64,000 nt of DNA from Candidatus Omnitrophota bacterium (GTDB lineage: Bacteria > Omnitrophota > Gorgyraeia > Zapsychrales > Fredricksoniimonadaceae): assembly GCA_037131245.1 (NCBI GenBank), contig JBAXRK010000007.1:7226-71225 (forward strand), in the 5' to 3' direction. Below are positions 1 to 12,298 of the stretch, in pieces. The position numbers were made by a program, and so were the translations under genes. Within the stretch, counting starts at the first letter, position 1, and each line of letters opens with the position of its first letter. The notes below the pieces were generated by a model. It saw only the letters and a program-made list of their open reading frames with translations. It made no database searches and was not told where the DNA came from.

Positions 1-581
1 TGACATTGACCATTTTGTCAAAGTTTCCCGACCCTGACGTTCTGGCCGGTGTTGAACCGGCGCAGAATGTTATCTTGGCCTCAACACTTAATACCGAGCA
101 TGTTCGGGTCCGCTATGAACGCGGGACCCCTTCGTCTGCCCAACGCCTGAAAGCTCTCGCGACGCTTAAAAAGCAGGGGTGGAAGGTGGCGGTCCGGGTC
201 GATCCCGTGATATTCTATCCCGGTTGGGCGGCTGAGTATGGCCGGCTTTTTAAACAGGCGCGCGCCTTGGGCCCGGAGGCGGTGGTTTTTGGTGTCCTAC
301 GGCACACGCCTGATATCTTCCGACGGTCGTCTACGGCTTTGCGCCGTAAGCTGGAGGAAGATGGTTTGTCCGACATGGGAAGCGGAGAAGAGCGCGTTGC
401 CGAAGTTCACTCTTTGATGCGCCGGTCGCTGGGGACAGCGCTCATGCGGCGTTCTTTACCAATATCATTTAGGGCTGTTCGTCAACCTCTGCCGCTTTTA
501 TGGACCCGCGGGATCGCGGCTAATCCTTTGACGGCGGGTTTGGAGAAGCAGCTTCAGCAAATGGGAATATATGAGCGTTAA
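1..581 (+). CDS. Radical-SAM enzyme, SplB/COG1533-like, C-terminal part only (5' end lies upstream of the window)
   Basis: The frame is open to the window edge. Segment VRVDPVIFYPGWAAEYGRLFKQA resembles the C-terminal half of spore-photoproduct-lyase-type radical-SAM proteins (recalled from memory, not searched). The stop overlaps the next start by 11 nt. Confidence 0.4.
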   Translation, partial: TLTILSKFPDPDVLAGVEPAQNVILASTLNTEHVRVRYERGTPSSAQRLKALATLKKQGWKVAVRVDPVIFYPGWAAEYGRLFKQARALGPEAVVFGVLRHTPDIFRRSSTALRRKLEEDGLSDMGSGEERVAEVHSLMRRSLGTALMRRSLPISFRAVRQPLPLLWTRGIAANPLTAGLEKQLQQMGIYER

Positions 582-1746
582 GGCATCCAACGTTTATTTA
601 AAAAGTTTTTCATGTAATACGGGAAGTGTTTTTCTCGCCCGGCTAGAGCAGCGCTTAAACGCCTTTAAGGGTTTGACGCTTAGCGTCCCGTCGCGTACTT
701 TTTTTGGCAATGACCTGCCTGATCATTTTGCTGACATCCAGGCGGCGGCGCAATGCCGGGTGTGTATCATTGACGGTTGCGCGGTGATGGAATATATCCA
801 TCGGGACGTTCTTGATTATATTGCTCGCTTAAGGGATATGGCGCCGGAAGTGGTCCTGGTCCTGACCGGTTGCGCGGCCAGTTACGCCGTTAAACGGCAG
901 GCTGTTCCCGATGGCATTGCCTGCGCGTCTGATAATATTGATGATATTTGCGCGTTTATTGGTACGCAACTTGGTTTAAGCGCCAGCCCCTCTGTCGATC
1001 GGGCGGCGGTCGATGAACTGATCGCCGACCCGCGCAGTGGCGGTGTCCTGGTACGCTGGGGGTGCAACAATCAGTGCGCGTATTGCGTCGTTCCCAAAGT
1101 CAGGGAAGCCGGCCGGCGGCAGATGGATGTGCCGGCGGAGCGTATTGTTGAAGCCCTTAAGGGGATGTCCTCTCAGGGCATTGATCCGGCGATGCTCAGC
1201 GGCGTGTGTATCAGTTCCTGGCGCGGCCAGATCAAGGGACGCAAAGGAACCTTTGATGATCTGCTGGATCTGATCTTGAAAGAAACACCGGTGCGCATTG
1301 CCCGGCTTTCTTTGCAGCCGAAAGATATCACGCCCAGGACGCTGGAGCTGATCCAAAGTGAGCGGATCCTGCGCCCCTGGATGATCGCGGTCCAGCATTT
1401 TTCCGACCGGATTTTAAAAGCGATGCGCCGGCAGTACGATTCTTACAAGGTGGGGGAGATCTTTGATTTCTTCAAGGCGTCGGGATTGCAGGGGGGCGTG
1501 ATCACCGATCTTATTGTTGGTTTTCCGGGTGAGACGGCCGAAGACCTGGAGTCCCTGGATGTTTTTTTGCGGCGTTATGCGAAGGTTTTGGCCCGGGTGA
1601 AAGTGAGTGCTTACAGCGACCGTGGCCTTACCCTGTCTTCTAAAATGACAGGCCAGATCTCCGAGGAAGAGAAGAAAGAGCGCTCCCGTCTGGTGGCCGG
1701 TTTTTGCGCCAGGCACGGCGTGCCTTGCGAGGAGCTGACGCTATGA
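571..1746 (+). CDS. Radical-SAM methylthiotransferase-like enzyme (MiaB/RimO family architecture, no TRAM domain)
   Basis: CNNQCAYC (aa 165-172, nt 1063-1086) is a CxxxCxxC motif. The N-terminal domain has MTTase-like Cys contexts (FSCNTG, CRVCIIDGC, LTGCAAS). The downstream LIVGFPGETAEDLE block is typical of MiaB/RimO. At 391 aa the protein ends without room for a TRAM domain. Confidence 0.6.
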   Translation: MSVKASNVYLKSFSCNTGSVFLARLEQRLNAFKGLTLSVPSRTFFGNDLPDHFADIQAAAQCRVCIIDGCAVMEYIHRDVLDYIARLRDMAPEVVLVLTGCAASYAVKRQAVPDGIACASDNIDDICAFIGTQLGLSASPSVDRAAVDELIADPRSGGVLVRWGCNNQCAYCVVPKVREAGRRQMDVPAERIVEALKGMSSQGIDPAMLSGVCISSWRGQIKGRKGTFDDLLDLILKETPVRIARLSLQPKDITPRTLELIQSERILRPWMIAVQHFSDRILKAMRRQYDSYKVGEIFDFFKASGLQGGVITDLIVGFPGETAEDLESLDVFLRRYAKVLARVKVSAYSDRGLTLSSKMTGQISEEEKKERSRLVAGFCARHGVPCEELTL

Positions 1747-2678
1747 GGTACCGTGTTCATTACGAGTTCAACCGCGCGTGTGGCCAGGCCTGCGCGTATT
1801 GTTATAACCGTTTTGATCGTCGTCCCGCCGCTGACAGCAAGATGGATGCCCGCCTGGAAGAATATATCATGAAACTTCCCGGTGTAGAAGGTGTTGATGT
1901 TTACCTGACCGGGGGCGAACCTTTGCTCGAGTGGCCGCGTTTGAAAAATTTGTTGCTGCGGTTGAAGGGGTTGCGGAATAAGCAGAACCGCCTGTTCCTT
2001 TTTTCAAGCTTGCGGGGGGCTGGAACACCATTTTTCAGGTTCACGCGCGAGCAGGATGTGGTTCTGTTGATCAATGCTGATAGCGCCGACTTGGAACAGG
2101 CCTGCCGAAGGGGCTTACGGGATATTCCATCTTCTCGCCGTATCCTGACCCATGTCCTTGGCCGCGGCCGGGGGTCTTTGGTCGATCGCTTTAAGGCCTG
2201 GCGACGGTTGGGTTTTCGCGATGTGCGGATCAAATTGCCGTATGCGCCGGACGGGCTGGACCGTTTGCTTAATAAGCCGGAGCAGGCGCGTCTTTTTTCG
2301 CTGATCGATGAAGCCCAAGCGGCCTGCCTGAGCCGGATCAGCCGGGGGGCTCTGACCGCCGAGAGTTCGGCATTATTATCGCTATTCGCGCAGGACATAG
2401 TGTTATTGTCTAAAGGCTCGGTGCCCTGTCCGCCCTGCCGCGCCGGGATCAATTATTTTATGGCCGGGGACGGGAATGTTTTCCCTTGTTTGAAGCTTTC
2501 GACGCCGAAAGTGGTGGCCAAAGGGGGAAGAGGCCATCCCTGCGCGACGGGGAAGCTGGAAAAGAAGTTAAAGGTGCGTTTACGGTCCGGAGCGAAACAA
2601 TTATTATCCGCGATCGACAAGGCGGGCCTTTCTCTTGGGATCATTGAGAAGATCGCAGCAGCATCACCATTTTGTTGA
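1743..2678 (+). CDS. Radical-SAM enzyme with C-terminal Cys-rich twitch/SPASM-like region
   Basis: The internal ATG at 1743 forms an ATGA overlap with the upstream stop, so I prefer it to the track start at 1704. The radical-SAM motif is CGQACAYC, followed by YLTGGEPLL. The C-terminal CPPCRAGINYFMAGDGNVFPC resembles an auxiliary-cluster region. Confidence 0.65.
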   Translation: MRYRVHYEFNRACGQACAYCYNRFDRRPAADSKMDARLEEYIMKLPGVEGVDVYLTGGEPLLEWPRLKNLLLRLKGLRNKQNRLFLFSSLRGAGTPFFRFTREQDVVLLINADSADLEQACRRGLRDIPSSRRILTHVLGRGRGSLVDRFKAWRRLGFRDVRIKLPYAPDGLDRLLNKPEQARLFSLIDEAQAACLSRISRGALTAESSALLSLFAQDIVLLSKGSVPCPPCRAGINYFMAGDGNVFPCLKLSTPKVVAKGGRGHPCATGKLEKKLKVRLRSGAKQLLSAIDKAGLSLGIIEKIAAASPFC

Positions 2679-2697
2679 CGGTTTTGGGAGCGAAAAC

Positions 2698-3411
2698 ATG
2701 AGCAAGACAACGGTCATTGTCACGGGTGGATCAAGGGGCCTGGGCCTGGAATTGGTCCGGGTTTTGTTGCGTGAGGGGTATCAGGTCGCGACGTGTTCGC
2801 GGACTTTGTCTCCGGAGCTCCAGGCCCTGCGCGCGCGGCATTCCGGCTTGCTATGGCAAAAGGTTGATGTGTCGGATGAGAAGCAGGTTAGGGTTCTTTA
2901 CGCGCGGGTTAAAGCCCGTTTTAAGAACATTGACGTTCTGATTAACAATGCCGCGATCCCCGGCCCTCTTGGCTTCTTTAAGGACGTTGCTTTGAAGGAT
3001 TGGGAGCAGGCTTTGCGTGTGAACCTGTTGGGAGCGGTCTATCATACCCATGCGGCTTTGCCTTTAATGGGCAAGAAGCCGGGTGGGCTTATTTTGAATG
3101 TTTCGGCGCCTGTCGCTGGTGATTTGGTCGGTTGCAGTGCTTACGCGGTCGCTAAAACAGCCTTGAATTATTTTTCCGATATTCTTGCGGCAGAATTGAA
3201 GAAAAGCCCTATTGAGGTCAGGACGGTGTTTCCGGGCACGATGGACACCGGGTTTGTTAAAGCCGCGCTGCGAGGCGCGGGAAAGAAGATCCCTTTTTCG
3301 GTGGAGCTGGCACGTCAGAAGCGGCTTGGGGCTTTGCCGGGAGCTGAAGCGGCGGCGGAGAAGATCGTCAGGATGATCGTCGAATGGAGCGCGCGCCATG
3401 GCCGGAAATAA
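2698..3411 (+). CDS. Short-chain dehydrogenase/reductase (SDR)
   Basis: The start is ATG 2698 after GGGAG. TGGSRGLG is a Rossmann motif, NNAA follows, and the Y-x3-K context is SAYAVAKTAL. Length is about 237 aa. Confidence 0.8.
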   Translation: MSKTTVIVTGGSRGLGLELVRVLLREGYQVATCSRTLSPELQALRARHSGLLWQKVDVSDEKQVRVLYARVKARFKNIDVLINNAAIPGPLGFFKDVALKDWEQALRVNLLGAVYHTHAALPLMGKKPGGLILNVSAPVAGDLVGCSAYAVAKTALNYFSDILAAELKKSPIEVRTVFPGTMDTGFVKAALRGAGKKIPFSVELARQKRLGALPGAEAAAEKIVRMIVEWSARHGRK

Positions 3412-4348
3412 AGAAGTGAAGCCGGTCAGAAGAATGCTGCTGGGGTTGACCGACCGCTGCAATATGCGCTGTTCTTATTGTTATGTGCCCTTAGGCCGGC
3501 GCGATATGACCCGGGCCGAGGTGCGTCGGCATTTGACCTGGTTCATTGACGCGCCTGGTGACCGGGAGAAACTGGTTTACCTTTACGGCGGCGAACCGTT
3601 CCTGGTCCCGGAGCTGATGGTTGATGCGGTTGGCTATGGGCAAAAGATCGCGGTCAAACGGGGGAAGAAACTATCTTTCATCGTTGTGACCAATGGAACG
3701 CTGGCCAGCCGGCTGGAGCTGTCGTTCTTTCTTGAGCATCAGATGAAGGTCATGGTCTCGTTCTCCGGTCGCGGCCGGGCCCATGATCGGGTAAGGCCGC
3801 TTCGCGGAGGTAAGGGAACATATGCCACGGCTCTTGCCACCTTGGAGAAATTTGTTGCCTTATTGCCGAATGATCGTCTTTGGTTAAGCGCGACGGTCAC
3901 GCCATCGGGCGTGCGAACGCTGGACGCTGATCTGCGTTATTTTGAAAAGCTGGGTGTAAAGAATTTTCATGTGGAACCGGTCATTCATCCGGACTATCTC
4001 TGGGATAAGCAGGCGGCTGTTTTGAAAGGAGCGGTGGAAGATTTTTTGAGCCGTTTAACGGCGCAGGCCGCGTCAAAAGACAAGAGTCTTTTTAATACGC
4101 TTTTGTGCCGGCAGCTGGAGATGCTTGAGGGGTTGTATCTGCCGCAGGACTATGTGCGTTACAATGATACTCGCTTTTATCCCGGCCGCCGGAGAATGTA
4201 TGATCATTTTGAATTGGATCAGGGGCAACGGCCCGTTTATCCGGTGTGGGACATACTTCGGCAGGTGACCCTGTCGGCGGCGACCGATATTGTTAGACGG
4301 ACAAGGTGCGCGCAATACGTGGAACGCGCTTTGGAAAGGGCCATTTAG
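3398..4348 (+). CDS. Radical-SAM enzyme (no obvious SPASM extension)
   Basis: The motif is CNMRCSYC, followed by YLYGGEPFL. The gene overlaps the SDR stop by 14 nt. Confidence 0.7.
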   Translation: MAGNKEVKPVRRMLLGLTDRCNMRCSYCYVPLGRRDMTRAEVRRHLTWFIDAPGDREKLVYLYGGEPFLVPELMVDAVGYGQKIAVKRGKKLSFIVVTNGTLASRLELSFFLEHQMKVMVSFSGRGRAHDRVRPLRGGKGTYATALATLEKFVALLPNDRLWLSATVTPSGVRTLDADLRYFEKLGVKNFHVEPVIHPDYLWDKQAAVLKGAVEDFLSRLTAQAASKDKSLFNTLLCRQLEMLEGLYLPQDYVRYNDTRFYPGRRRMYDHFELDQGQRPVYPVWDILRQVTLSAATDIVRRTRCAQYVERALERAI

Positions 4349-4359
4349 GGGAGGCGCTC

Positions 4360-5163
4360 ATGGCGGCAAAAAAGAAAGTGATCTTAAATTGGAGCGGGGG
4401 GAAAGATTGTACGCATGCTTTGCATGTCCTTCAGCAGTCGGGTCGGTATGATGTGGTCGGGCTTCTTGAAATAGCGGGCACTCACCGGAATTTACAGCAC
4501 GGGATCCCGCACGCTTTGATCCAGGCGCAGGCGGATAGCCTTGGCTTGCCGTTATTTCGGCATATTGTTACCTGGGACACCAAATCCCTGGCCTTGACCA
4601 GGAACGCTTATCGGGACCTGGTGATCCGGGACCCCGGATTTCACGCGAAACTGCAGGCTTTCAAGAAACTAGGCGTTGCATATCTGGCCGGTGGGGACAT
4701 TGATCCCGACAGTTTTCAGCTCAGGGTGAAGGTCCTGGCGCAATTCGACTCGCTTAAGGCTTTGTGCCCTCTGATCTGCCCGGGCCTGGACCATCGTCTT
4801 TCTGGTGAGGAACGCCGGCAGAGGATGCGGGCTCATTCTTTGGAGCTTGCCCACCGGTTCATCAAAGCCGGTTTTAAGGCTTTGGTCGTTAAAGTTAACC
4901 TTAATACGGAGCGAGGCGACCAAGGCCGGGCGGCCTCTCTGAAGCTTCTTGGCCGCGATTACAACGGGGCTTTTTTGTCTTCCCTGGACAGTTCCATGGA
5001 TCCCTGCGGCGAGTTTTATGAATTCCACACTTTTGTTTACGATGGGCCGGGCTTCCGGAAGAAAGTGGATTTTACGAAAGGCCCGGTGCGTTATGTCAGT
5101 GAGATGGATTACGGGATGCAAGCTATGCTGGATCTAAGCCCGAAGGGCCTGCCGAAAGGATAA
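4360..5163 (+). CDS. PP-loop ATP pyrophosphatase, Dph6/MJ0570 (DUF71)-like
   Basis: The start is ATG 4360 after GGGGAGG. The N-terminal LNWSGGKDC is a PP-loop (SGGKD) and the C-terminal motif is GEFYEFHTFVYDGP. The family assignment is from memory. Confidence 0.6.
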   Translation: MAAKKKVILNWSGGKDCTHALHVLQQSGRYDVVGLLEIAGTHRNLQHGIPHALIQAQADSLGLPLFRHIVTWDTKSLALTRNAYRDLVIRDPGFHAKLQAFKKLGVAYLAGGDIDPDSFQLRVKVLAQFDSLKALCPLICPGLDHRLSGEERRQRMRAHSLELAHRFIKAGFKALVVKVNLNTERGDQGRAASLKLLGRDYNGAFLSSLDSSMDPCGEFYEFHTFVYDGPGFRKKVDFTKGPVRYVSEMDYGMQAMLDLSPKGLPKG

Positions 5164-5171
5164 AGGAGTAT

Positions 5172-5200
5172 TTGTTTTCCTTTTTGACATAGTATATACT
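5172..5200 (+). promoter_or_regulatory. Sigma70-like promoter candidate TTGTTT-N17-TATACT in the only sizeable gap of the rSAM block
   Basis: The hexamers were read directly (5172-5177 and 5195-5200). They lie in the 103-nt AT-rich gap upstream of the Cys-rich gene. A TTGACA at 5184 lacks a well-spaced -10. Confidence 0.35.
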
Positions 5201-5266
5201 TTCATTAAAGAGGTTAAAGAAGCTATTTTCTTAAGACCAATCTTTACTCCGTGAGGGACAAGGCTT

Positions 5267-6385
5267 ATGCGATTTCTTTTCTGCCTGATCGTGCTCTTGT
5301 TTGCTGGTGCCGCTTCCGTTAATGCGGCCGAATCCGCCGCTTGTCCGGTGGGGAGTTCCTGTTCGGATAATTTACCGACCGCGATCGCGGCGGCTTTCAG
5401 CTCGATCAACTGGGATACCTTTACGATCCCTTCTCCGACCTGCCTGGCGGATTGTAGTTGTACGCCAGTCACTGATACGATGCAGTTGGTATGCCTGAGG
5501 GTTAGGGATATGAGGGTTGATGCGATCTATAATTCGATTGCTACCTCGATCGCTGCTGACCCGACGATCTATGGGACAGTTGCCGCCACCGCGAGCAGTA
5601 ACATAACGGCGGCTTTCTCCGGTTTGACTACTCAGGATCAGGCGAAGGCTGCAACGTTGACGCCTAATTTGGTGACCTGGTGGAATTTTAAGATGTGCCG
5701 CAATCAATCGGTTTGTTATGTCTCTGGGGCGCCGGTCGCGGATGGAACCAAACTTCCGGCATCGGTCAATACCCTTGCGGCGTGCAATAATTATAACGGT
5801 ACCGGTTTGTGTGTTAATGCGATGGTTAAACCGAGTTTGACCGCTTCCTGCACCGGGACGCCGACTTTGCTCAATACCAAAGCGAGTCCTGCTAAGGATG
5901 CATGCGTTATTTTAAGCTCCTCAGCTTTTGATCTGACAGCCTTCAATGACTACTATACACTGACCTGCCCGGCGGATAATACGTGCCAGAATGTTCCTCC
6001 GACCGATCCGAGCTATGCCACCAAATTTATTTCGCAGGATACAGTAGCCGGTCTGTTGGCTTTGGCGGAAGGCAATCGCTATGGTGCCGCTAAATATTGC
6101 GAGGATTATGTCCGCGATTATGTGCATGCTCAGGTGCCGGCCGATATATGGACCCCAGCCCGGTATCAATTGATATGGAATTGTAAAATAGCTTTCGGCC
6201 CAGCGGGAACGCGGGATCAGTTGAAAGCGGATATCACCAAATGGGAAGAGAAGGTGTGTGATATGACCTGCGATTCGACGACGGCTCATCCTTATACGAT
6301 CGTTGATACGAGTGTGAAGGATTTTTGTACGGGGACACCGGATACGTATCCCTGGCCTTTGCTGATCGATTACAGTTTGCTGTGA
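5267..6385 (+). CDS. Secreted cysteine-rich protein, unknown function
   Basis: The Sec-type signal peptide is MRFLFCLIVLLFAGAASVNA/AE. The mature part has about 19 Cys (hand count). It is rich in Thr/Ala/Asn/Pro and I recognise no domain. Confidence 0.6.
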   Translation: MRFLFCLIVLLFAGAASVNAAESAACPVGSSCSDNLPTAIAAAFSSINWDTFTIPSPTCLADCSCTPVTDTMQLVCLRVRDMRVDAIYNSIATSIAADPTIYGTVAATASSNITAAFSGLTTQDQAKAATLTPNLVTWWNFKMCRNQSVCYVSGAPVADGTKLPASVNTLAACNNYNGTGLCVNAMVKPSLTASCTGTPTLLNTKASPAKDACVILSSSAFDLTAFNDYYTLTCPADNTCQNVPPTDPSYATKFISQDTVAGLLALAEGNRYGAAKYCEDYVRDYVHAQVPADIWTPARYQLIWNCKIAFGPAGTRDQLKADITKWEEKVCDMTCDSTTAHPYTIVDTSVKDFCTGTPDTYPWPLLIDYSLL

Positions 6386-6401
6386 GGATAGGTGGCGTTT
6401 C

Positions 6402-6704
6402 ATGGTGATCTCGTTACAGAAAGAAGTTTATCCTCCTGAAGCGGTGCTTCAGGCGTGTTATCAGTTCCTTGAGAAAGCGTATTTCTTTATTGATCTTGAC
6501 GCGTCGGGGCAGGTGATCAGGGTCCATATTTCCCGGAAAACCGGGCCGCTTAACAAGGCGTTCAAAAATGTTTTTCTGGAAGAGTTGCTGCATTCTTCGC
6601 TGCGGTTCCAGCTGGCCCGTCGTAATCGCAAACTGCGAGAGTTCATCGTTGGCAGTGCTTTGTTTTCCCGTGATGCCGCGGCCGGAAAGAAACATGTCAA
6701 ATAA
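6402..6704 (+). CDS. hxsD: HxsD-like small protein (His-Xaa-Ser system accessory protein), copy 1
   Basis: It is 100 aa. KEVYPPEAVLQACYQF lies near the N-terminus. ELLHSSLRF sits where the TIGR03976 family carries its LLNDYxLRE signature (from memory). It is immediately upstream of the paired rSAM maturases. Confidence 0.5.
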   Translation: MVISLQKEVYPPEAVLQACYQFLEKAYFFIDLDASGQVIRVHISRKTGPLNKAFKNVFLEELLHSSLRFQLARRNRKLREFIVGSALFSRDAAAGKKHVK

Positions 6705-6921
6705 TAAGCCGGGAACCTGGCGTTTGCTATTTGATAAAAGGGTCTACCCGCTGCGCGCGGTGAAGGCGGCGGCTGATGACTTTTCGCATTTGGGGCGCTT
6801 TGCTGTCCGTCCGGTTCAAGGAATGATCGAAGTGAGCGCTCAGGTGCCAGCGGACGCTTCGCCATCATTGCGTGCGGAGTTCGCGAATTACGCGCTGGGG
6901 GCCGTATGCCAGGGCCGTTGA
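6694..6921 (+). CDS. HxsD-like small protein, copy 2 (divergent paralogue)
   Basis: ATG 6694 overlaps the upstream stop by 11 nt. KRVYPLRAVKAAADDF parallels KEVYPPEAVLQACYQF of copy 1. The C-terminal EFANYALG resembles the DYxL part of the family signature. Confidence 0.45.
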   Translation: MSNNKPGTWRLLFDKRVYPLRAVKAAADDFSHLGRFAVRPVQGMIEVSAQVPADASPSLRAEFANYALGAVCQGR

Positions 6922-8360
6922 AAGGGTTGGAACCCTACGCTTATTTTCGTTTCAGGAAGTTGGGGCGCTCGGTATTGCTGACCAATGAAACGGGTGAGTT
7001 CCAGCATGTGACCCCGGCCCAGTTTGCCGCCATGTCCGCCGGTAAGCTTAAAGCCCTGTTCCCGGACACGTACCAGGCGCTGCGGGACAAGAATTTTGTC
7101 AGGTCTGTTCTTTCAAAGCAAAAAGTAGCCGAACGTTACGCCGGAAAATATTTTGTCGGCGAGGGGTCCAGCCTGCATATTGTGGTCTTAACGCTGCGCT
7201 GCGACCAGGCCTGTGTGTATTGCCATGCCAGCGCGCAGTGCGGCGGTGGCCATGGGCTTGATATGCCGCTTGAGCTGGGCCGCCGGGTGGTTGAGAAGAT
7301 CTTTGAGTCACCATCGCCGACGCTCAGCATTGAGTTCCAGGGCGGCGAGCCGTTGTTGAATTTTGGGGTCCTCAAGGATATTGTCCTGCGGGCCAGTCGT
7401 AAAGCCGCCAGCGGCCAAAGGCCGGTTTCTTTTTCGGTGGTTTCCAATCTGGCGCCGTTGACGGATGAGATGTATCGGTTCTTTCTCAAGCATCATGTTC
7501 AGGTCTGTACATCTCTTGACGGGCCGAAGTGGCTTCATGACCTTCAGCGGCCGCGGGCTGACGGGCGCTCGTCGCACGGGATCGTGACGCGCGGTTTAAA
7601 ACGGCTCGCGACTCGCAAGGATGGGCGTAATGCGTCGTCTCTGCTGACGGTCACCCGCCGCAGTTTGCCCTACTACCGGGAGATCGTTGACGAGTATGTG
7701 AAGCAGGGCATGACGGTCATTCATTTGCGGCCGCTCAATCCTTTGGGCGCGGCGAAGAAAAAGACCGGGTCGATCGGGTATTCAGCGGAAGCATTTGTTA
7801 AGTTCTACCGGCAGGCTCTGGATCATATTTTGTCGCTCAATCGTCAGGGGCGTTTTTTATCTGAGCGCACGGCAGTGATCTATCTGACCAAGATCCTGAC
7901 CAGCACGGACCCGCGATACCTGGACTTGCGGTCGCCCTGCGGGGCGGGGATCGGGCAGGTCGTGTACAATCATGATGGTGATGTGTACACATGTGATGAG
8001 GGGCGGATGCTAGGCACGGCGGGCGATCCGGCGTTTCGGATAGGGCCGCTCGCGTCGTTCTCCTTTAAAACGCTGGGCGATAGCCCGGTGGTCAAGGCGT
8101 GTTGTACCGCGTCGTGCCTTGAGGTCGTGCCGGGTTGTTCCGAGTGCGCGTACAAGCCTTATTGCGGTGTGTGCCCGGTGCTTAACCACGCGATCGGCGG
8201 AAATGTGTTCCGGTCAGCGTCTTTTGTTTGCGAGATAAAAAAAGGGATCCTCGATCATTTGTTCGCAAGGCTCGAGGACCCGCGGGACAGGAAAATATTT
8301 TATCGATGGATCAATGCGCCAAGCGAGGAGGCCAAAGATGGCAAGCAAGAAAAAGGTTAA
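6906..8360 (+). CDS. hxsB: Radical-SAM/SPASM maturase, HxsB-like
   Basis: It is 484 aa. The N-terminal YAYFRFRKLGRSVLLTNETGEFQHVTPAQF precedes the core. The motif is CDQACVYC, followed by FQGGEPLL. C-terminal Cys clusters are CGAGIGQ...YTCDEG and CSECAYKPYCGVCP (SPASM-like). Assignment to HxsB rather than HxsC rests on length and memory only. Confidence 0.55.
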   Translation: MPGPLKGLEPYAYFRFRKLGRSVLLTNETGEFQHVTPAQFAAMSAGKLKALFPDTYQALRDKNFVRSVLSKQKVAERYAGKYFVGEGSSLHIVVLTLRCDQACVYCHASAQCGGGHGLDMPLELGRRVVEKIFESPSPTLSIEFQGGEPLLNFGVLKDIVLRASRKAASGQRPVSFSVVSNLAPLTDEMYRFFLKHHVQVCTSLDGPKWLHDLQRPRADGRSSHGIVTRGLKRLATRKDGRNASSLLTVTRRSLPYYREIVDEYVKQGMTVIHLRPLNPLGAAKKKTGSIGYSAEAFVKFYRQALDHILSLNRQGRFLSERTAVIYLTKILTSTDPRYLDLRSPCGAGIGQVVYNHDGDVYTCDEGRMLGTAGDPAFRIGPLASFSFKTLGDSPVVKACCTASCLEVVPGCSECAYKPYCGVCPVLNHAIGGNVFRSASFVCEIKKGILDHLFARLEDPRDRKIFYRWINAPSEEAKDGKQEKG

Positions 8361-8649
8361 AAAAGCGGGCGTGATCCCAAGGATATCTAAAGGGGTCAAG
8401 GATTTCATGATGGATGAGGAAGGCAAGATCAAAAAGAAGGACATCGCCAAGCTGGGTGTGTCGATGGCCGCGCTGGGCATGATGGTGCATTCGGACGCGG
8501 CGGCCGACGTGACCTGCCCCTATATCACCTCGGATTCGCATTCCAATGCCCTGGTCCTGCCGGTAGCACCCAAGACCTGCTATGAGCACGCGAACACGCA
8601 TACGAATCATTGTAATCATTCGAGCCATAGTGTGGGTGGTTGGTGCTAA
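8338..8649 (+). CDS. hxsA: HxsA-like precursor peptide/protein with C-terminal His-x-Asn/Ser repeat and 4 Cys
   Basis: ATG 8338 lies 5 nt after GAGGAGG, inside the 3' end of the upstream maturase gene. The 103-aa product ends ...CYEHANTHTNHCNHSSHSVGGWC. The stop overlaps the start of the next rSAM gene. Alternative internal starts at 8407/8410 would give a classical Sec signal peptide. Confidence 0.6.
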   Translation: MASKKKVKKAGVIPRISKGVKDFMMDEEGKIKKKDIAKLGVSMAALGMMVHSDAAADVTCPYITSDSHSNALVLPVAPKTCYEHANTHTNHCNHSSHSVGGWC

Positions 8650-9761
8650 AAGCCGCTCAGAAAGAGCTGCAGATCTTTTTGACCGATCGCTGTCAGTTGT
8701 CTTGCCGGTACTGCTATCTTGACCGCCGTGCAAAAAAAGACCTGTCCTGGCCCCTGGTCAAGAAAGCAGTCACGGATTTTTTGGATGGGGCGTCAGCCCC
8801 CCGGGTTGTTTCATTCTATGGCGGCGAACCGCTGCTTTCGTTCCCTCTTTTCAAACGCACTGTTGAGTTCATCCGTCGCGATCATTCGCCGGCGGATGTT
8901 TTTCTTTATCTGGCGACGAACGGGATCCGGGTTGACCGGAAGGTTGCGGCTTTCTGCGCGGCGCAGGCGGTCACGGTTTTGCTGAGTTTCGACGGCCGCC
9001 GTGACCGGCATGATGGCCAGCGTTGCGGTGCTGTGGAGAGCAGTTACGATGCCGCCCGGTCGGCGCTCAAGCATTTGCAAAAAGCGCGTGTTCCGGTGAT
9101 CGCGAATATGGTGATCCGGCCGCAGGATGCCTCGTCCTGGGTAGATGATCTTAAGCATGTGGTCGGTTGTGGTTTCACGCAGGTCCAGTTGCTCCCGGAT
9201 GCGGCGGCCATCTGGTCAACGGTTGAGATCAACCGTTTCGCCCGGTCGCAGCGGGATTTTGTTAGGATGAACATCGATCATTTCACCCGGAAAGGGGCGA
9301 GTGTTTTTACGGTCGAGCAGGTGCGCCGTTTGATCTCATTACGCGATAACCGGGGGGCATGCGGTTGCAATAAACGCATCTTGTCTGCCGATGGAAAATA
9401 TTATGCCTGTGATAAGGCGCTGGCTTGTTCTTCTGATGGCCGTCAGCCGTATGCGACCGGAGATGCCCTGGCAGGGTTTGACGCGGATGGCCGCCGGAAG
9501 ATCATCGGCCGGCTTGATCGCCGGGTAAAAGCCGCAGAACGCGGCAGGCGTTGTGCGGCTTGCCGCTGGCGTGAGGTATGTTTTTGTCCTTTGGGCCTTC
9601 CCGTGTTGAGCGGGGTAGATCCGGACCTTGGTCAGCGCTGGAATTCTTTTTGCCGCATCTCGGACCTGCTGCTGACCTCCTGCCGGCAGATCGTCCTGAA
9701 ATTAAAGGATGAGCCGCGCTTTTGCCGGGCGTACCAACTTAGGCCGGACGCGCCGGCCTGA
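8640..9761 (+). CDS. hxsC: Radical-SAM/SPASM maturase, HxsC-like
   Basis: It is 373 aa. The motif is CQLSCRYC, followed by FYGGEPLL. C-terminal clusters are CGCNKRILSADGKYYACD and CAACRWREVCFCPLG (SPASM-like). It is paired with the upstream maturase across the precursor gene. The start codon (TTG 8640 or GTG 8643) is uncertain. Confidence 0.55.
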   Translation: MVLKAAQKELQIFLTDRCQLSCRYCYLDRRAKKDLSWPLVKKAVTDFLDGASAPRVVSFYGGEPLLSFPLFKRTVEFIRRDHSPADVFLYLATNGIRVDRKVAAFCAAQAVTVLLSFDGRRDRHDGQRCGAVESSYDAARSALKHLQKARVPVIANMVIRPQDASSWVDDLKHVVGCGFTQVQLLPDAAAIWSTVEINRFARSQRDFVRMNIDHFTRKGASVFTVEQVRRLISLRDNRGACGCNKRILSADGKYYACDKALACSSDGRQPYATGDALAGFDADGRRKIIGRLDRRVKAAERGRRCAACRWREVCFCPLGLPVLSGVDPDLGQRWNSFCRISDLLLTSCRQIVLKLKDEPRFCRAYQLRPDAPA

Positions 9762-9776
9762 ATGTTTTGAGGGACA

Positions 9777-10514
9777 ATGGCTATTACCGGAAAACTATTA
9801 GTGATCGATCTCGACGGCCGTTGTAACTGCCGTTGTGTTTTTTGCCTTAAAGAGGACGCTATCCTGACCGCGCCGCGCCGTACCTTGGCCGGGACGCTGA
9901 CGCAGATCCGCCAGGGCATTACCGCCGGCATCGACAGTGTGGATTTTTTCGGTGGTGAACCGACCATGTATCCTTTCCTCAAGAAAGCAGTTGTCTTCAC
10001 GCAGCGGAAGGGATTAAAGGCTTTTCTGGCTACGAACGCGATCGCCTTTTCTTCAAAGGCCTACACGACAGCATTTTTTAAAGGTCTCAAGCCTTTAGCC
10101 GTACGGACCACGCTGCATAGCCATCACGCTGACGTGCATGAGCGGATCACCCGGACGCCCGGCAGTTGGGCCCGGACCATCAAGGGGATAGGCCATTTGC
10201 TGGCGGCCAATGAGCAGGTCACGGTGAACATTGTGATCAATCGCTGGAATTATCGCGAGCTGGTCGCGTGGACCCGGTTCCTGTACGGGCTCGGGGTGCG
10301 TTCCGTGAAATATTCGGCCCTGCAGCACACCGGCGGTGCTTTGGCTTGCGAGGAATTGTGGGTGGGAGATAAACAATACGCGGCCCCGTTACTGAAGGCG
10401 TTGCGCGCAGCATCGAAATTAGGCTTTTATTTTATTGAACTCGAAATGATCCCCGGGCCTGTCGTAGACAAAGCCCGGGGAATGAAGATCAATTGCCACA
10501 GCCGAAGACCCTGA
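9777..10514 (+). CDS. Small radical-SAM enzyme (core domain only)
   Basis: The motif is CNCRCVFC (CxxxCxxC), followed by FFGGEPTM. It is 245 aa with no auxiliary Cys cluster. It is the last gene of the + strand block. Confidence 0.65.
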   Translation: MAITGKLLVIDLDGRCNCRCVFCLKEDAILTAPRRTLAGTLTQIRQGITAGIDSVDFFGGEPTMYPFLKKAVVFTQRKGLKAFLATNAIAFSSKAYTTAFFKGLKPLAVRTTLHSHHADVHERITRTPGSWARTIKGIGHLLAANEQVTVNIVINRWNYRELVAWTRFLYGLGVRSVKYSALQHTGGALACEELWVGDKQYAAPLLKALRAASKLGFYFIELEMIPGPVVDKARGMKINCHSRRP

Positions 10515-12093
10515 AATAGAGGTCCTTGTAGTTACAGGCAAACTTCGCAGGCATCGGGATCTTGTCGGTCATTGGCAGGATCTTGTAGCAGTAAGCGATC
10601 TGCCCTTTGCGGTCCGTTATTTTGTGTTCGTCATCCATGCAATCATAGAACGGTTTGTCGAGTTGCCTGATCGGCGGAACATTGTCTGAGGTGGCTTGGT
10701 AACAGATGGTCCCGTCCTTGGAAAAACATATCCCGATATAGCCGCACACATCAGTGGTCGGATTGGGCGGGCAGATCGCCGGGTCTTCCTGTGAATCGCA
10801 AAGTTTATCACCTTGCACGACAGTCCAGGTAGAGGTCCAGTTCTTGTTGGTAGTATCCGGCCACCAACCGTACCAGCACGCATTCTGTGTGCAGCTTTCA
10901 TTTTCATGCAGCCCGTTAGCGCCCTCAACGTTGGGTGAATACCCTCCGGGACAGGTCCGTTCGCAATAACGATCGGGTGAGCATTGCCCGGTGGCCCCGT
11001 AATTTTTCAAATAGACGTAGTGATTACGATAGGCGTTAATTTTTTCTTGAATGCCTGTTTCGACATATTTGGTCAGGACCCGGTATGGATTGTGATTCGC
11101 TTGCATTGCTATGACCCGGTGCGCCTGAAGCAGGTCCATGTTCGCCGGAGTGGGCGGGAGGGTTGCCATATTCGGCGGATTATCACCCGCATTGGCCGCG
11201 CTCTGGCGGTAAATAACTTCTTTCACCAATTGCCAGCGCTGCGGTATGGAAAGACTATCGTCGTTCTCCAGGCTCATGGCATTTTCGTTAACGTTATGGG
11301 TATCGTCTTCCAAGGTCGTTGAATTAGAGATAATGGTACAAGGCTTTGAGTGCGGGTAAGGATATTGCCAGCAGGAAGGCAGGCAGTTCTGTTCGGTTTC
11401 ACCGCCGAAGCCGTCATGCTTACAGCCGTAAATGGTGTCGGGTGTTGACGGGTGAAGGGCATTGGCGCATTGTTTCGAGTAAATCCGTTCCCCGATCGCG
11501 CAGTCTTTGGTGTCATAAGTCCCCAGGCCGGCTTGAGTCTGGGTGCATGTTCCGATCGGATTAGCGAACTCGCCATTAAAGCGCGCGTCGACCGCGGACC
11601 GGACAGGGTTGCATAGGTTTGCGGCCGAGGGCGCGATCCCGGTGGCCGCCAGGATCTTGGTGCCGCAGCCGACCGGTTTAGCTTCGGTGCAACAGGTTTC
11701 ATCAGGGATCCAGGCTTCTTCCTGGGCGCATTTCAACGGGGTGCATGTGCGGTAATAGTAGCGCATGGTCGGCTTGTTCTTATCCGCGCCGCAATCGCCT
11801 TTGGTCCAGGTATTGATGATCGCCTTCTTCCAGTCGTTATAGTGGGTGGTTTGGTCGGGAAGCGTGACCGGATTGGCCGAACATTTGCAGCTTTTGGGTG
11901 TCAGGGACGGGTCGAGCGTGCTATCTTGTTCGATCTTTTCAGAGGTGGCATCCTTGACGCTTTCTTCGGTCAGCTTGAAATAACCCTGAACCCCTTTGAG
12001 GAGCATGGGGCCGCCGATCGCAATACCGGCCAGGATGATCGTGGCAAGCAGGATATATTCAAGAGCGGATTGGCCTTTTTTCATCAAGCGCAT
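10489..12093 (-). CDS. Flp/class-III-signal prepilin-like N-terminus fused to a ~500-aa cysteine-rich extracellular domain
   Basis: The preferred start is ATG 12093, with GAGG 5 nt upstream. The N-terminus is MRLMKKG/QSALEYILLATIILAGIAIGG, which fits the G/XXXXEY prepilin signature plus a hydrophobic helix. The rest has about 30 Cys by hand count. The 3' end overlaps the convergent rSAM gene by 26 nt. Confidence 0.6.
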   Translation of the reverse strand: MRLMKKGQSALEYILLATIILAGIAIGGPMLLKGVQGYFKLTEESVKDATSEKIEQDSTLDPSLTPKSCKCSANPVTLPDQTTHYNDWKKAIINTWTKGDCGADKNKPTMRYYYRTCTPLKCAQEEAWIPDETCCTEAKPVGCGTKILAATGIAPSAANLCNPVRSAVDARFNGEFANPIGTCTQTQAGLGTYDTKDCAIGERIYSKQCANALHPSTPDTIYGCKHDGFGGETEQNCLPSCWQYPYPHSKPCTIISNSTTLEDDTHNVNENAMSLENDDSLSIPQRWQLVKEVIYRQSAANAGDNPPNMATLPPTPANMDLLQAHRVIAMQANHNPYRVLTKYVETGIQEKINAYRNHYVYLKNYGATGQCSPDRYCERTCPGGYSPNVEGANGLHENESCTQNACWYGWWPDTTNKNWTSTWTVVQGDKLCDSQEDPAICPPNPTTDVCGYIGICFSKDGTICYQATSDNVPPIRQLDKPFYDCMDDEHKITDRKGQIAYCYKILPMTDKIPMPAKFACNYKDLYFRVFGCGN

Positions 12094-12129
12094 AAGGACC
12101 TCTAAGGGGTTTATCAAATGGTCGCTTTA

Positions 12130-12158
12130 AGTATAAAAGACAAAGACCCAATTAGCAA
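12130..12158 (-). promoter_or_regulatory. Sigma70-like promoter TTGCTA-N17-TATACT for the pilin-like gene
   Basis: Read on the minus strand: the -35 is the complement of 12153-12158 and the -10 is the complement of 12130-12135. The spacer is exactly 17 nt. Confidence 0.5.
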
Positions 12159-12191
12159 GATTTTGATTATAAATCAACGGGGTAATTCTGC

Positions 12192-12220
12192 TTGACGAAA
12201 AAAAAGTCGTAGGATATACT
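12192..12220 (+). promoter_or_regulatory. Sigma70-like promoter TTGACG-N17-TATACT upstream of glmU
   Basis: The hexamers are at 12192-12197 and 12215-12220 with a 17-nt spacer. It lies about 79 nt upstream of the glmU ATG. Confidence 0.55.
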
Positions 12221-12298
12221 ATCGCACCTTAGTGATTTTTCAGTGCTTTTTTCGGCCCGTTCACGCCTTTTATTAGTGAACGTGACGGCGCGGGGTTT

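What the first reader, a model, noticed from the sequence alone, without database searches (positions are those of the whole stretch)
5172..6385. Secreted 19-Cys protein with its own promoter embedded between the two rSAM sub-blocks
The only non-enzymatic large ORF inside the block encodes a Sec signal peptide (cleavage about VNA/AE). It is followed by about 350 aa with about 19 Cys (hand count) and no domain I recognise. It is preceded by the single AT-rich gap of the locus (TTGTTT-N17-TATACT).

rSAM/SPASM enzymes are known to act on whole proteins as well as peptides. Examples are anaerobic sulfatase maturases, and QhpD forming Cys-Asp/Glu thioethers in the Cys-rich QhpC subunit. By analogy this protein could be a substrate of the neighbouring maturases rather than a bystander. 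The odd number of Cys also argues that not all are in disulfides.
Basis: partly seen in the sequence, partly recalled or inferred. Interest (0 to 1): 0.55.

Follow-up and report, generated by a model that had tools for sequence, protein, structure and literature searches.

The report
Secreted 19-cysteine protein heading Hxs operon
This is a real gene for an exported, cysteine-rich protein of a very rare, unnamed family, and it always sits as the first gene of an unusual His-Xaa-Ser radical-SAM operon in a few Omnitrophota bacteria; it is probably an outside-the-cell partner of that system rather than a proven target of the enzymes.

Summary
Window 5267-6385 (+) encodes a 372-aa protein with a Sec-type signal peptide (cleavage VNA/AE), 19 Cys in the mature part and no Pfam, NCBIfam, PHROG, PADLOC or PDB match. 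It follows the only sizeable intergenic gap of the block.

The family is tiny: an exhaustive HMMER search of 1.84 billion representatives found four members. The two that carry names are Omnitrophota. In all three loci where the downstream gene is visible, the gene lies 16-28 nt upstream of hxsD. It heads a variant His-Xaa-Ser operon: CysRich, hxsD, hxsD-like, hxsB, hxsA3-like, rSAM/SPASM, hxsC-like.

The protein evolves fastest in the operon (35% identity against 55-71%) yet keeps every Cys. Cys are gained or lost in even numbers, and mature counts are always odd (19, 19, 17, 15).

Related variant Hxs operons carry other, non-homologous secreted Cys proteins instead, and these are mutually exclusive with this family.

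Best reading: a disulfide-scaffolded extracytoplasmic partner of the matured HxsA3 peptide (confidence 0.42). I class it as a new variant of a known kind.

The parts
5172..5201 (+). Conserved promoter-like or operator element TTGTTTTCC-N-AGTATATACTT.
   Evidence: Invariant blocks TTTGTTTTC and GTATATACTT at the same position in the window, L002 and L010. Single occurrence in the 64-kb window. Not listed by the consensus scan.
5253..5258 (+). Ribosome-binding site GAGGGA, 8 nt before the ATG.
   Evidence: Read from the sequence. A purine-rich GA(A/G)AG(G/A)G is also present in L002 and L010 before the ATG.
5267..5326 (+). Signal peptide codons 1-20 (MRFLFCLIVLLFAGAASVNA), with predicted signal peptidase I cleavage after VNA.
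   Evidence: n-h-c layout and a (V/A)xA site in all four family members. It is the only hydrophobic segment in the protein. No predictor was run.
5327..6385 (+). Mature 352-aa acidic protein (pI about 4.6) with 19 Cys, plus the stop codon. It has an N-terminal Cys cluster (C26-C76), a variable middle part (absent in P0004) and a conserved C-terminal domain of about 160 aa with 8 Cys (C213-C354) ending YPWP.
   Evidence: There are 11 Cys invariant in all four members, and 20 of 20 Cys columns are shared with the 35%-identical L002 orthologue.
6402..6704 (+). hxsD, 16 nt downstream of the target's stop codon.
   Evidence: TIGR03976 scores 49.3 bits against a cut-off of 50. Precomputed Pfam PF27806 HxsD hit. 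The same junction is seen in L002 and in L010/L013.
6694..6921 (+). Second, short HxsD-like gene.
   Evidence: NF038315 scores 46.2 bits against a cut-off of 41. Gene call in L001 at 11428-11655.
6906..8360 (+). hxsB, a radical SAM/SPASM maturase.
   Evidence: TIGR03978 scores 476 bits against a cut-off of 370.
8338..8649 (+). HxsA3-like precursor (103 aa). It has a conserved leader, a hydrophobic stretch and a His/Ser/Cys-rich core ending GGWC. It is the obvious substrate of the maturases.
   Evidence: NF038309 scores 36.9 bits against a cut-off of 65. The leader aligns across nine loci.
8643..9761 (+). Radical SAM/SPASM enzyme. Its best match is the PapB-type ranthipeptide maturase model, below the cut-off.
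9777..10514 (+). HxsC/HxsC4-like radical SAM enzyme. It is the last gene of the operon.
   Evidence: NF038332 scores 71 bits and TIGR03977 scores 67 bits, both below their cut-offs.
4360..5163 (+). PP-loop ATP pyrophosphatase (Diphthami_syn_2), the gene immediately upstream of the gap. The pair rSAM + PP-loop enzyme precedes the target in two of four loci, and as a fusion protein in a third.
   Evidence: The L002 fusion at 6512-8242 carries an SGGVDS motif.

Best explanation
The gene encodes a Sec-exported, acidic protein of about 350 residues whose fold is held together mainly by disulfide bonds. One conserved cysteine is left over. It founds a very small, unannotated family confined to a narrow Omnitrophota clade.

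It is transcribed from a conserved promoter as the first gene of a variant His-Xaa-Ser operon: CysRich, hxsD, hxsD-like, hxsB, hxsA3-like, rSAM/SPASM, hxsC-like.

Proposed mechanism:
1. The radical SAM enzymes and HxsD mature the small HxsA3-like precursor in the cytoplasm.
2. That peptide and the Cys-rich protein are both exported.
3. Outside the cytoplasm the Cys-rich protein acts as scaffold, anchor, receptor or co-effector for the matured HxS peptide. It would supply in trans the envelope-located module that canonical HxsA carries in cis as a peptidoglycan-binding domain.

Shown: the gene, the signal-peptide layout, Cys conservation and parity, operon position, promoter footprint, and mutual exclusivity with other secreted Hxs-associated proteins.

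Inferred: disulfide bonding, co-export, physical or functional partnership with HxsA3, and any defence role.
For: - Real, conserved gene: four family members with 11 invariant Cys. All 20 Cys columns are shared with the L002 orthologue at only 35% identity.
- Conserved junction to hxsD of 16-28 nt in the window, L002 and L010/L013, while the genes upstream of it differ. The window has an rSAM block, L002 has an rSAM-PP-loop fusion and L013 has nothing.
- The upstream element is conserved across three loci.
- It is the fastest-evolving operon member: 35% identity against HxsD 68, HxsB 66, HxsA3 71, rSAM/SPASM 55 and HxsC-like 56. This is typical of an exposed extracytoplasmic protein.
- Cys changes come in even numbers: C234+C240 are lost together in L013, and P0004 loses six and gains two. 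This fits disulfide pairs.
- Six other variant Hxs loci encode other secreted Cys proteins in the operon: P1 upstream of hxsD and P2 between hxsB and hxsA, the latter with 10 invariant Cys.
- Across the 18 fetched loci these families never co-occur with the 19-Cys family, which suggests functional replacement.
- The operon has its own precursor with a leader conserved in nine loci.
- Canonical HxsA combines a signal peptide, HxS repeats and a peptidoglycan-binding domain, and acts in the periplasm (PMC13128918).
Against: - There is no direct evidence of any interaction with HxsA3.
- No fold could be obtained. AlphaFold2 gave pLDDT 35 and 42, and Foldseek and PDB sequence searches returned nothing meaningful.
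- The four members come from closely related genomes. The HCP gene upstream is 92% identical between the window's contig (L001) and L002. Part of the conserved adjacency may therefore simply be inherited synteny.
- P1 and P2 are not detectably homologous to this family, so 'replacement' rests on position only.
- Some variant Hxs loci (L012) have no secreted Cys protein at all.
- The conserved odd Cys count is not explained by a pure disulfide scaffold.
- Whether these environmental Hxs variants are defence systems at all is unknown.
Confidence: 0.42

Rival explanations
1. The Cys-rich protein is itself a whole-protein substrate of one or more neighbouring radical SAM/SPASM enzymes. These would install thioether or other crosslinks on Cys in the cytoplasm, on the unfolded pre-protein, before Sec export.
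For: - The gene is always next to rSAM genes.
- The island holds far more rSAM enzymes (about 8 in L001) than one 103-aa precursor seems to need.
- The odd Cys number is conserved at 19, 19, 17 and 15.
- Canonical HxsA is a signal-peptide-bearing exported protein matured by HxsB/C/D (PMC13128918).
- Anaerobic sulfatase maturases act on Sec substrates before export (established knowledge, not tested here).
- An rSAM plus a PP-loop enzyme sit directly upstream in three of four loci.
Against: - A dedicated HxS precursor is present, with a conserved leader and its own 4-6 Cys.
- The target has no HxS motif, no sulfatase C/SxPxR motif and no leader before the signal peptide.
- QhpC-type maturation needs a 28-residue leader, the QhpE protease and the QhpF ABC exporter, none of which is present.
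- Cys are gained and lost in pairs, as expected for disulfides.
- In L013 no rSAM gene precedes the gene.
- Related operons have other, non-homologous secreted proteins in the same place, including P1 with few Cys.
Confidence: 0.2
2. It is a cargo or component of a type IV pilus / type II secretion-like apparatus encoded in the same island. After Sec export and disulfide folding in the periplasm, it would be displayed or secreted as a surface adhesin or tip protein together with the 534-aa Cys-rich pilin-like protein. The Hxs genes would be only loosely connected.
For: - A second Cys-rich protein (30 Cys) with a class III prepilin-type signal (KKGQSALEY) converges on the operon end at 10489-12117. 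It is conserved in L002 at 57% identity.
- A Peptidase_A24-like gene is present in L001, L002 and L013.
- L014 has T2SSE, MshEN and T2SSF immediately upstream of its hxs operon.
- PilZ and a receiver-domain protein are conserved upstream.
Against: - The target has a Sec signal, not a prepilin signal.
- It shows no similarity to the pilin-like protein.
- It is tightly coupled to hxsD (16 nt), not to the pilin or A24 genes, whose positions differ between loci.
- The A24 hits are at or just below the Pfam cut-off.
Confidence: 0.15
3. It is a functionally unrelated secreted lineage-specific protein that happens to be inherited in this position within a few closely related genomes.
For: - There are only four members, from a narrow clade with extensive shared synteny (HCP, PilZ and RR lie upstream in all).
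- No functional domain is recognisable.
Against: - The gene-hxsD junction and the promoter footprint survive although the flanking gene content was rearranged three different ways.
- It would be the first cistron of the operon, sharing its promoter.
- Analogous secreted proteins occur in other variant Hxs operons.
Confidence: 0.1

Closest known systems
Canonical HXS anti-phage system, HxsD-HxsB-HxsC-HxsA (Li et al., Nat Commun 2026, PMC13128918)
   Same: - The gene belongs to an operon with a bona fide HxsB (476 bits), HxsD-type proteins, further rSAM enzymes and a His/Ser-rich precursor.
- In the canonical system the end product also works outside the cytoplasm, and the substrate carries a signal peptide.
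   Different: - The canonical system has four genes, and 99.7% of systems are in Pseudomonadota.
- Its HxsA carries the HxS repeats and a peptidoglycan-binding domain in one polypeptide.
- Here the HxS protein is a short A3-like peptide.
- HxsC is met only at sub-threshold score.
- There are two HxsD-type genes.
- An extra secreted 19-Cys protein with no HxS repeat heads the operon.
- The host is Omnitrophota.
P1 ('TTYYPSPYGVY...CC') and P2 (10 invariant Cys) secreted proteins of other variant HxsA3/HxsA4 operons, defined here as alignments A8 and A7
   Same: - They are signal-peptide-bearing, Cys-containing proteins of unknown function encoded inside variant Hxs operons.
- P1 occupies the same slot directly upstream of hxsD.
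   Different: - No detectable homology (hhalign probabilities at or below 1%).
- Different sizes and Cys counts (4-9 in P1, 12-15 in P2).
- They never co-occur with the 19-Cys family.
QhpC/QhpD: the gamma subunit of quinohemoprotein amine dehydrogenase, crosslinked by an rSAM/SPASM enzyme
   Same: A Cys-containing protein destined for the periplasm and encoded next to an rSAM/SPASM enzyme.
   Different: - QhpC is small and has a 28-residue leader needed for QhpD binding.
- It is cleaved by QhpE and exported by the ABC transporter QhpF (PMC7876137).
- The target is 372 aa, has a plain Sec signal and has no such neighbours.
- The QhpD model scores far below its cut-off on every rSAM enzyme here.
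Anaerobic sulfatase-maturating enzymes and their Sec-exported sulfatases
   Same: A cytoplasmic rSAM/SPASM enzyme modifies a signal-peptide-bearing protein before export.
   Different: The target has no sulfatase domain and no C/SxPxR motif. The anSME model is below its cut-off on all rSAM enzymes of the block.

Membership tests
Variant His-Xaa-Ser (Hxs) operon, the system the gene is filed under | HxsB radical SAM/SPASM maturase (TIGR03978 equivalog) | tested here: met
   476.4 bits against a cut-off of 370 for window 6906-8360.
Variant His-Xaa-Ser (Hxs) operon, the system the gene is filed under | HxsD small protein (TIGR03976 / PF27806) | tested here: inconclusive
   49.3 bits against a cut-off of 50. 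The precomputed Pfam PF27806 hit is positive. The second gene passes NF038315, at 46.2 bits against 41.
Variant His-Xaa-Ser (Hxs) operon, the system the gene is filed under | HxsC radical SAM partner (TIGR03977 equivalog) | tested here: not met
   The best candidate, 9777-10514, scores 67 bits against 267.9, and 71 bits against 500 for HxsC4. It is related but not an equivalog.
Variant His-Xaa-Ser (Hxs) operon, the system the gene is filed under | His-Xaa-Ser repeat precursor (HxsA, A3 or A4) | tested here: inconclusive
   Window 8338-8649 scores 36.9 bits against 65 for NF038309. Its leader aligns with A3/A4-type proteins of eight other loci, and the core is His/Ser-rich.
HxsA effector (could the target itself be an HxsA?) | His-Xaa-Ser repeats | tested here: not met
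   The mature protein has 2 His and no H.S tripeptide. Other members have 0-3 His.
HxsA effector (could the target itself be an HxsA?) | Match to the HxsA/A3/A4 models, or a peptidoglycan-binding domain | tested here: not met
   No NCBIfam or Pfam hit at E <= 0.01 or 0.1 respectively.
QhpC-type rSAM-crosslinked protein | Small subunit with an N-terminal leader required for maturase binding, plus QhpD/QhpE/QhpF neighbours | tested here: not met
   The protein is 372 aa and its signal peptide starts at residue 2. The QhpD model reaches at most 90 bits against a cut-off of 453. There is no subtilisin or ABC exporter in the island.
QhpC-type rSAM-crosslinked protein | [quoted passage not shown] | not testable with these tools
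   This needs mass spectrometry of the protein.
Anaerobic sulfatase (anSME substrate) | Sulfatase domain with a C/SxPxR motif | tested here: not met
   No Pfam hit. The motif is absent in all four members.
Sec-exported soluble protein | N-terminal n-h-c signal peptide with a small-x-small cleavage site, and no further transmembrane segment | tested here: met
   This rests on sequence inspection only, as no predictor was available. MR, then a hydrophobic core, then (V/A)xA in all four members. It is the only hydrophobic 19-mer window, and there is no RR and no lipobox.
P2 Hxs-associated secreted Cys-rich family (alignment A7) | Sequence or profile homology | tested here: not met
   hhalign probability 1.0%, covering only the signal peptide. 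The HMM search found no cross-hits.

The most novel reading that the evidence does not exclude
Either of two readings would be new.

(a) The 19-Cys protein is a whole-protein substrate of the island's radical SAM/SPASM enzymes. A 350-residue Sec-exported protein would carry rSAM-installed crosslinks, with the conserved odd Cys marking the site.

(b) It is the extracytoplasmic co-effector of a split, two-component version of the HXS phage-DNA-entry barrier in ultra-small Omnitrophota. The HxS peptide and its envelope module would be separate gene products. In other phyla the unrelated P1/P2 proteins would play the same part.
Probability: 0.3. Interest if true: 0.7.

Novelty: new variant of a known kind. 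Interest (0 to 1): 0.45.

Why it matters
The HXS system was only recently shown to be an anti-phage defence. Its rSAM-matured effector works in the periplasm, and it was described as almost exclusive to Pseudomonadota (PMC13128918).

This locus, and the related loci collected here, show that uncultured phyla carry re-organised Hxs operons. These include Omnitrophota, Elusimicrobia and unclassified or candidate-phylum MAGs. In them the HxS-repeat protein is a short peptide, and one or two separate secreted, cysteine-containing proteins are built into the operon.

If these proteins are partners of the matured peptide, they point to how the system is anchored or targeted outside the cell. If they are substrates, they would extend rSAM chemistry to large exported proteins.

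Either way, the 19-Cys family gives a concrete, cloneable test case: a conserved odd cysteine, a conserved promoter and a defined operon.

Tried and rejected
- **Word-indexed homologue search, single sequence and family profile.** It found only the protein itself and the L002 orthologue. The exhaustive search was needed to find four members.
- **JGI metagenome scan with the family alignment.** Nothing found.
- **JGI metagenome scan with the HxsA3 alignment.** Two loci only.
- **AlphaFold2, single sequence and four-sequence alignment.** pLDDT 35 and 42, unusable.
- **Foldseek against PDB with the poor model.** Best E-value 2, TM 0.16, meaningless.
- **PDB sequence search with the family profile.** No hits at E <= 10.
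- **PADLOC and PHROGs.** Nothing for the target. There were only generic viperin-like rSAM similarities for the enzymes.
- **Rfam on 1-13000.** Nothing relevant in the 5' gap.
- **Homology to the second Cys-rich protein of the window (10489-12117).** None.
- **Paralogues in the window.** None.
- **Remote homology to the P1, P2 or Elusimicrobia-type Cys proteins.** None.
- **Lipoprotein, Tat substrate, c-type cytochrome (CxxCH), sulfatase and HxsA identities.** All rejected on sequence.
- **Antisense ORFs 5134-5472 and 5921-6403.** Mechanical ORFs with no support. They were not pursued.
Full report
**1. The observation**

The ORF is at 5267-6385 on the + strand. It starts with ATG and encodes 372 aa. 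The frame opens only at 5255, so the start is unambiguous. A GAGGGA ribosome-binding site lies 8 nt upstream.

The protein has 20 Cys. The N-terminus (MR, hydrophobic core, SVNA) is the only hydrophobic stretch. It has no twin-arginine and no lipobox. No signal-peptide predictor was available, so the Sec assignment rests on these rules and on the same layout in all homologues.

The mature protein is acidic (pI about 4.6) and has 2 His. It has no HxS, CxxCH or C/SxPxR motif. Pfam, NCBIfam, PADLOC, PHROGs and PDB sequences give no hit.

The 103-nt gap at 5164-5266 is the only intergenic gap longer than 30 nt in the block, and it is AT-richer than its surroundings. TTGTTT-N17-TATACT is at 5172-5200. 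It fails the consensus scanner, because the -35 box matches 3 of 6. A single such match is not significant by itself.

**2. Who has this protein**

The window comes from a Candidatus Omnitrophota MAG, and the protein is WCO69_03955. An exhaustive phmmer search of 1.84 billion cluster representatives found only four members:
- the query itself;
- P0002, 351 aa, from an Omnitrophica MAG (locus L002);
- P0003, on contigs L010/L013, whose true start gives 334-335 aa with a signal peptide;
- P0004, 240 aa, a shorter form lacking the middle region.

Profile-based word search and a JGI metagenome scan added nothing. There is no paralogue in the window.

**3. Cysteine pattern**

The window protein and its L002 orthologue are 35% identical, yet they share all 20 Cys columns. 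Eleven Cys are invariant in all four members, against 35 invariant columns overall.

Differences between members come in even numbers. L013 lacks C234 and C240 together. P0004 lacks six Cys and has two new ones. Mature counts are 19, 19, 17 and 15, always odd.

This is what one expects if nearly all Cys form intramolecular disulfides and one conserved Cys does something else. With four related sequences the parity argument is suggestive, not proof.

**4. Genomic context**

| Genes (window coordinates) | Identification |
|---|---|
| Upstream, 571-5163 | MiaB-like rSAM, a weak rSAM, an SDR, a PapB-like rSAM lacking a clear SPASM half, and a PP-loop ATP pyrophosphatase |
| 6402-6704 | hxsD (16 nt after the target's stop codon) |
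| 6694-6921 | HxsD-like |
| 6906-8360 | hxsB (476 bits against 370) |
| 8338-8649 | HxsA3-like precursor |
| 8643-9761 | rSAM/SPASM |
| 9777-10514 | HxsC/HxsC4-like rSAM |

The 'second sub-block' is therefore a variant His-Xaa-Ser system.

The same junction, target then 26-28 nt then hxsD, is seen in L002 and L010/L013. What lies upstream of the target differs:
- In the window there is an rSAM block.
- In L002 there is a 576-aa HxsC-like rSAM fused to a PP-loop domain.
- In L013 there is nothing between the PilZ/receiver pair and the target.
- On the short P0004 contig there is an rSAM plus a Diphthami_syn_2 gene.

Being 'between two rSAM blocks' is thus not conserved. Being the first gene of the hxs operon is.

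**5. The promoter**

I aligned the three upstream regions. TTTGTTTTC and GTATATACTT are invariant and equally spaced, although the proteins are only 35-38% identical. The element occurs once in the 64-kb window. It contains the palindrome (A)GTATATAC(T), so it may be an operator as well as a -10 box.

Downstream genes are separated by 16 nt or less, or they overlap. The element therefore most likely drives the whole operon from 5267 to 10514, not the Cys-rich gene alone.

**6. Evolutionary rate**

Between the window and L002 the target is 35% identical. The other products compare as follows:

| Protein | Identity (%) |
|---|---|
| HxsD | 68 |
| HxsB | 66 |
| HxsA3 | 71 |
| rSAM/SPASM | 55 |
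| HxsC-like | 56 |
| Receiver protein | 77 |
| HCP | 92 |

A fast-evolving sequence on an invariant Cys scaffold is typical of an exposed extracytoplasmic protein.

**7. What other variant Hxs operons carry**

I collected loci through HxsB and HxsA3 relatives. A recurrent layout appears: P1, HxsD, HxsD-like, HxsB, P2, HxsA3/A4, then rSAM genes.

- P1 is a signal-peptide protein with a TTYYPSPYGVY motif and a C-terminal CC. It is present in L004, L006, L009, L016, L017 and L018 (alignment A8).
- P2 is a secreted 233-290-aa protein with 12-15 Cys, ten of them invariant. It is present in L004, L006, L009, L014/L015, L016 and L017 (alignment A7).

Neither family has a Pfam or NCBIfam model. Neither is detectably homologous to the 19-Cys family.

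HMM searches over all ORFs of all 18 fetched loci and the window show strict mutual exclusivity. Loci with the 19-Cys family have no P1 or P2, and the reverse also holds.

A Deltaproteobacteria locus (L003) has a 1213-aa, 73-Cys choice-of-anchor-D protein upstream of hxsD. A low-GC locus (L012) has none. Secreted Cys proteins are therefore a common but not universal built-in component of these operons.

**8. The precursor**

The HxsA3-like gene has a leader, KKxxLPxIKKxIKDFLxxEEGKIxKKDIAKLGVSLAVLG. It is conserved across nine loci and is followed by a His/Ser-rich core. In the 19-Cys clade the core carries 4-6 Cys and ends GGWC. In other clades it has 0-2 Cys.

The operon therefore has an obvious substrate, including Cys for any thioether-forming SPASM enzyme.

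**9. What is known**

Canonical HXS (HxsD-HxsB-HxsC-HxsA) is an anti-phage system. HxsA has a signal peptide, five HxS repeats and a peptidoglycan-binding domain. It is matured by the rSAM enzymes (N-terminal processing and a +8 Da change on SHRSS) and acts in the periplasm against phage DNA entry. Of the systems found, 99.7% were in Pseudomonadota (PMC13128918). I found no literature on A3/A4 variants or on this protein.

None of these is present here.

**10. Interpretation**

*Best-supported reading (0.42).* The protein is an exported, disulfide-scaffolded accessory or partner of the variant Hxs system. It would supply in trans the extracytoplasmic module that canonical HxsA has in cis.

Canonical HxsA and the anaerobic sulfatases show that rSAM enzymes can act on signal-peptide-bearing proteins. 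The island has many rSAM enzymes, and the odd Cys is conserved. Against it stand several points:
- there is no positive evidence;
- a dedicated precursor exists;
- Cys are gained and lost in pairs;
- the upstream rSAM block is not conserved.

*A pilus or T2SS-linked role (0.15).* This is suggested by three observations:
- the convergent 534-aa pilin-like protein with 30 Cys (10489-12117, class III signal, conserved in L002);
- the Peptidase_A24-like genes in the island;
- the T2SSE/T2SSF genes next to the L014 operon.

*A mere passenger (0.1).* This is unlikely given the conserved junction and promoter.

**11. Limits**

- Structure prediction failed (pLDDT 35 and 42), so no fold, disulfide map or binding surface is available. 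The Foldseek output is noise.
- All family members come from a narrow clade, so conserved adjacency is partly inherited.
- No experiment links these environmental Hxs variants to defence.

**12. Verdict**

It is a new, unannotated protein family forming a new variant of a known kind of system. Interest is moderate, at 0.45.

Noticed in passing
window 10489-12117 (-); L002 21001-22032 (-): A second large Cys-rich protein (534-542 aa, 30 Cys) has a class III prepilin-type signal (KKGQSALEYILL) and no family match. It converges on the end of the hxs operon. The partial L002 orthologue (cut by the locus end) is 57% identical. Peptidase_A24-like genes lie in the same island (L001 2660-3568, L002 19294-20202, end of L013).
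   Followed up: partly
window 8338-8649 (+); alignment A9 of nine loci: The HxsA3-like precursor is below the NCBIfam cut-off (36.9 against 65 bits). Its leader, KKxxLPxIKKxIKDFLxxEEGKIxKKDIAKLGVSLAVLG, is conserved across phyla. In the 19-Cys clade the core has 4-6 Cys and ends GGWC, while other clades have 0-2 Cys.
   Followed up: partly
L016 5906-6388, L017 5761-6351, L018 5814-6395, L004 8759-9520, L006 8651-9361, L009 2407-3612: P1 is an unannotated secreted protein family with a TTYYPSPYGVY motif and a C-terminal CC. It is encoded directly upstream of hxsD in variant Hxs operons of several phyla.
   Followed up: partly
L016 8448-9170, L017 8467-9207, L014 7508-8209, L006 11828-12700, L004 11434-12222, L009 5619-6437: P2 is an unannotated secreted family of 233-290 aa with ten invariant Cys. 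It is encoded between hxsB (or hxsD) and the HxsA3/A4 precursor. It never occurs together with the 19-Cys family.
   Followed up: partly
L002 6512-8242; window 3398-5163; P0004 contig: An HxsC-like radical SAM domain is fused to a PP-loop (SGGVDS) domain in L002, directly upstream of the Cys-rich gene. In the window and on the P0004 contig an rSAM gene and a Diphthami_syn_2 ATP pyrophosphatase are adjacent as separate genes. This hints at a coupled rSAM/adenylation step.
   Followed up: no
window 5191-5200: A perfect 10-bp palindrome, AGTATATACT, lies inside the conserved promoter-like element. Its core GTATATAC is invariant in three loci. It could be an operator, and a receiver-domain protein and a PilZ protein are conserved just upstream of the island.
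   Followed up: no
L003 5571-9212: In a Deltaproteobacteria MAG the gene upstream of hxsD encodes a 1213-aa, 73-Cys secreted protein with choice-of-anchor D and MXAN_6577-like Cys-rich repeats.
   Followed up: no
L016 2556-5339: In another Omnitrophota contig the hxs operon lies next to a HEPN/nucleotidyltransferase pair and a serine recombinase. This context resembles a mobile defence island.
   Followed up: no
L014 884-4287: Type II secretion / type IV pilus assembly genes (T2SSE, MshEN, T2SSF) and a Cys-free secreted coiled-coil protein lie immediately upstream of the hxs operon.
   Followed up: no
window 6402-6921: Two HxsD-type genes lie in tandem (HxsD, then a 75-aa HxsD-like protein). 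This arrangement recurs in L002, L012, L014, L016, L017 and L018, whereas the canonical system has a single HxsD.
   Followed up: no
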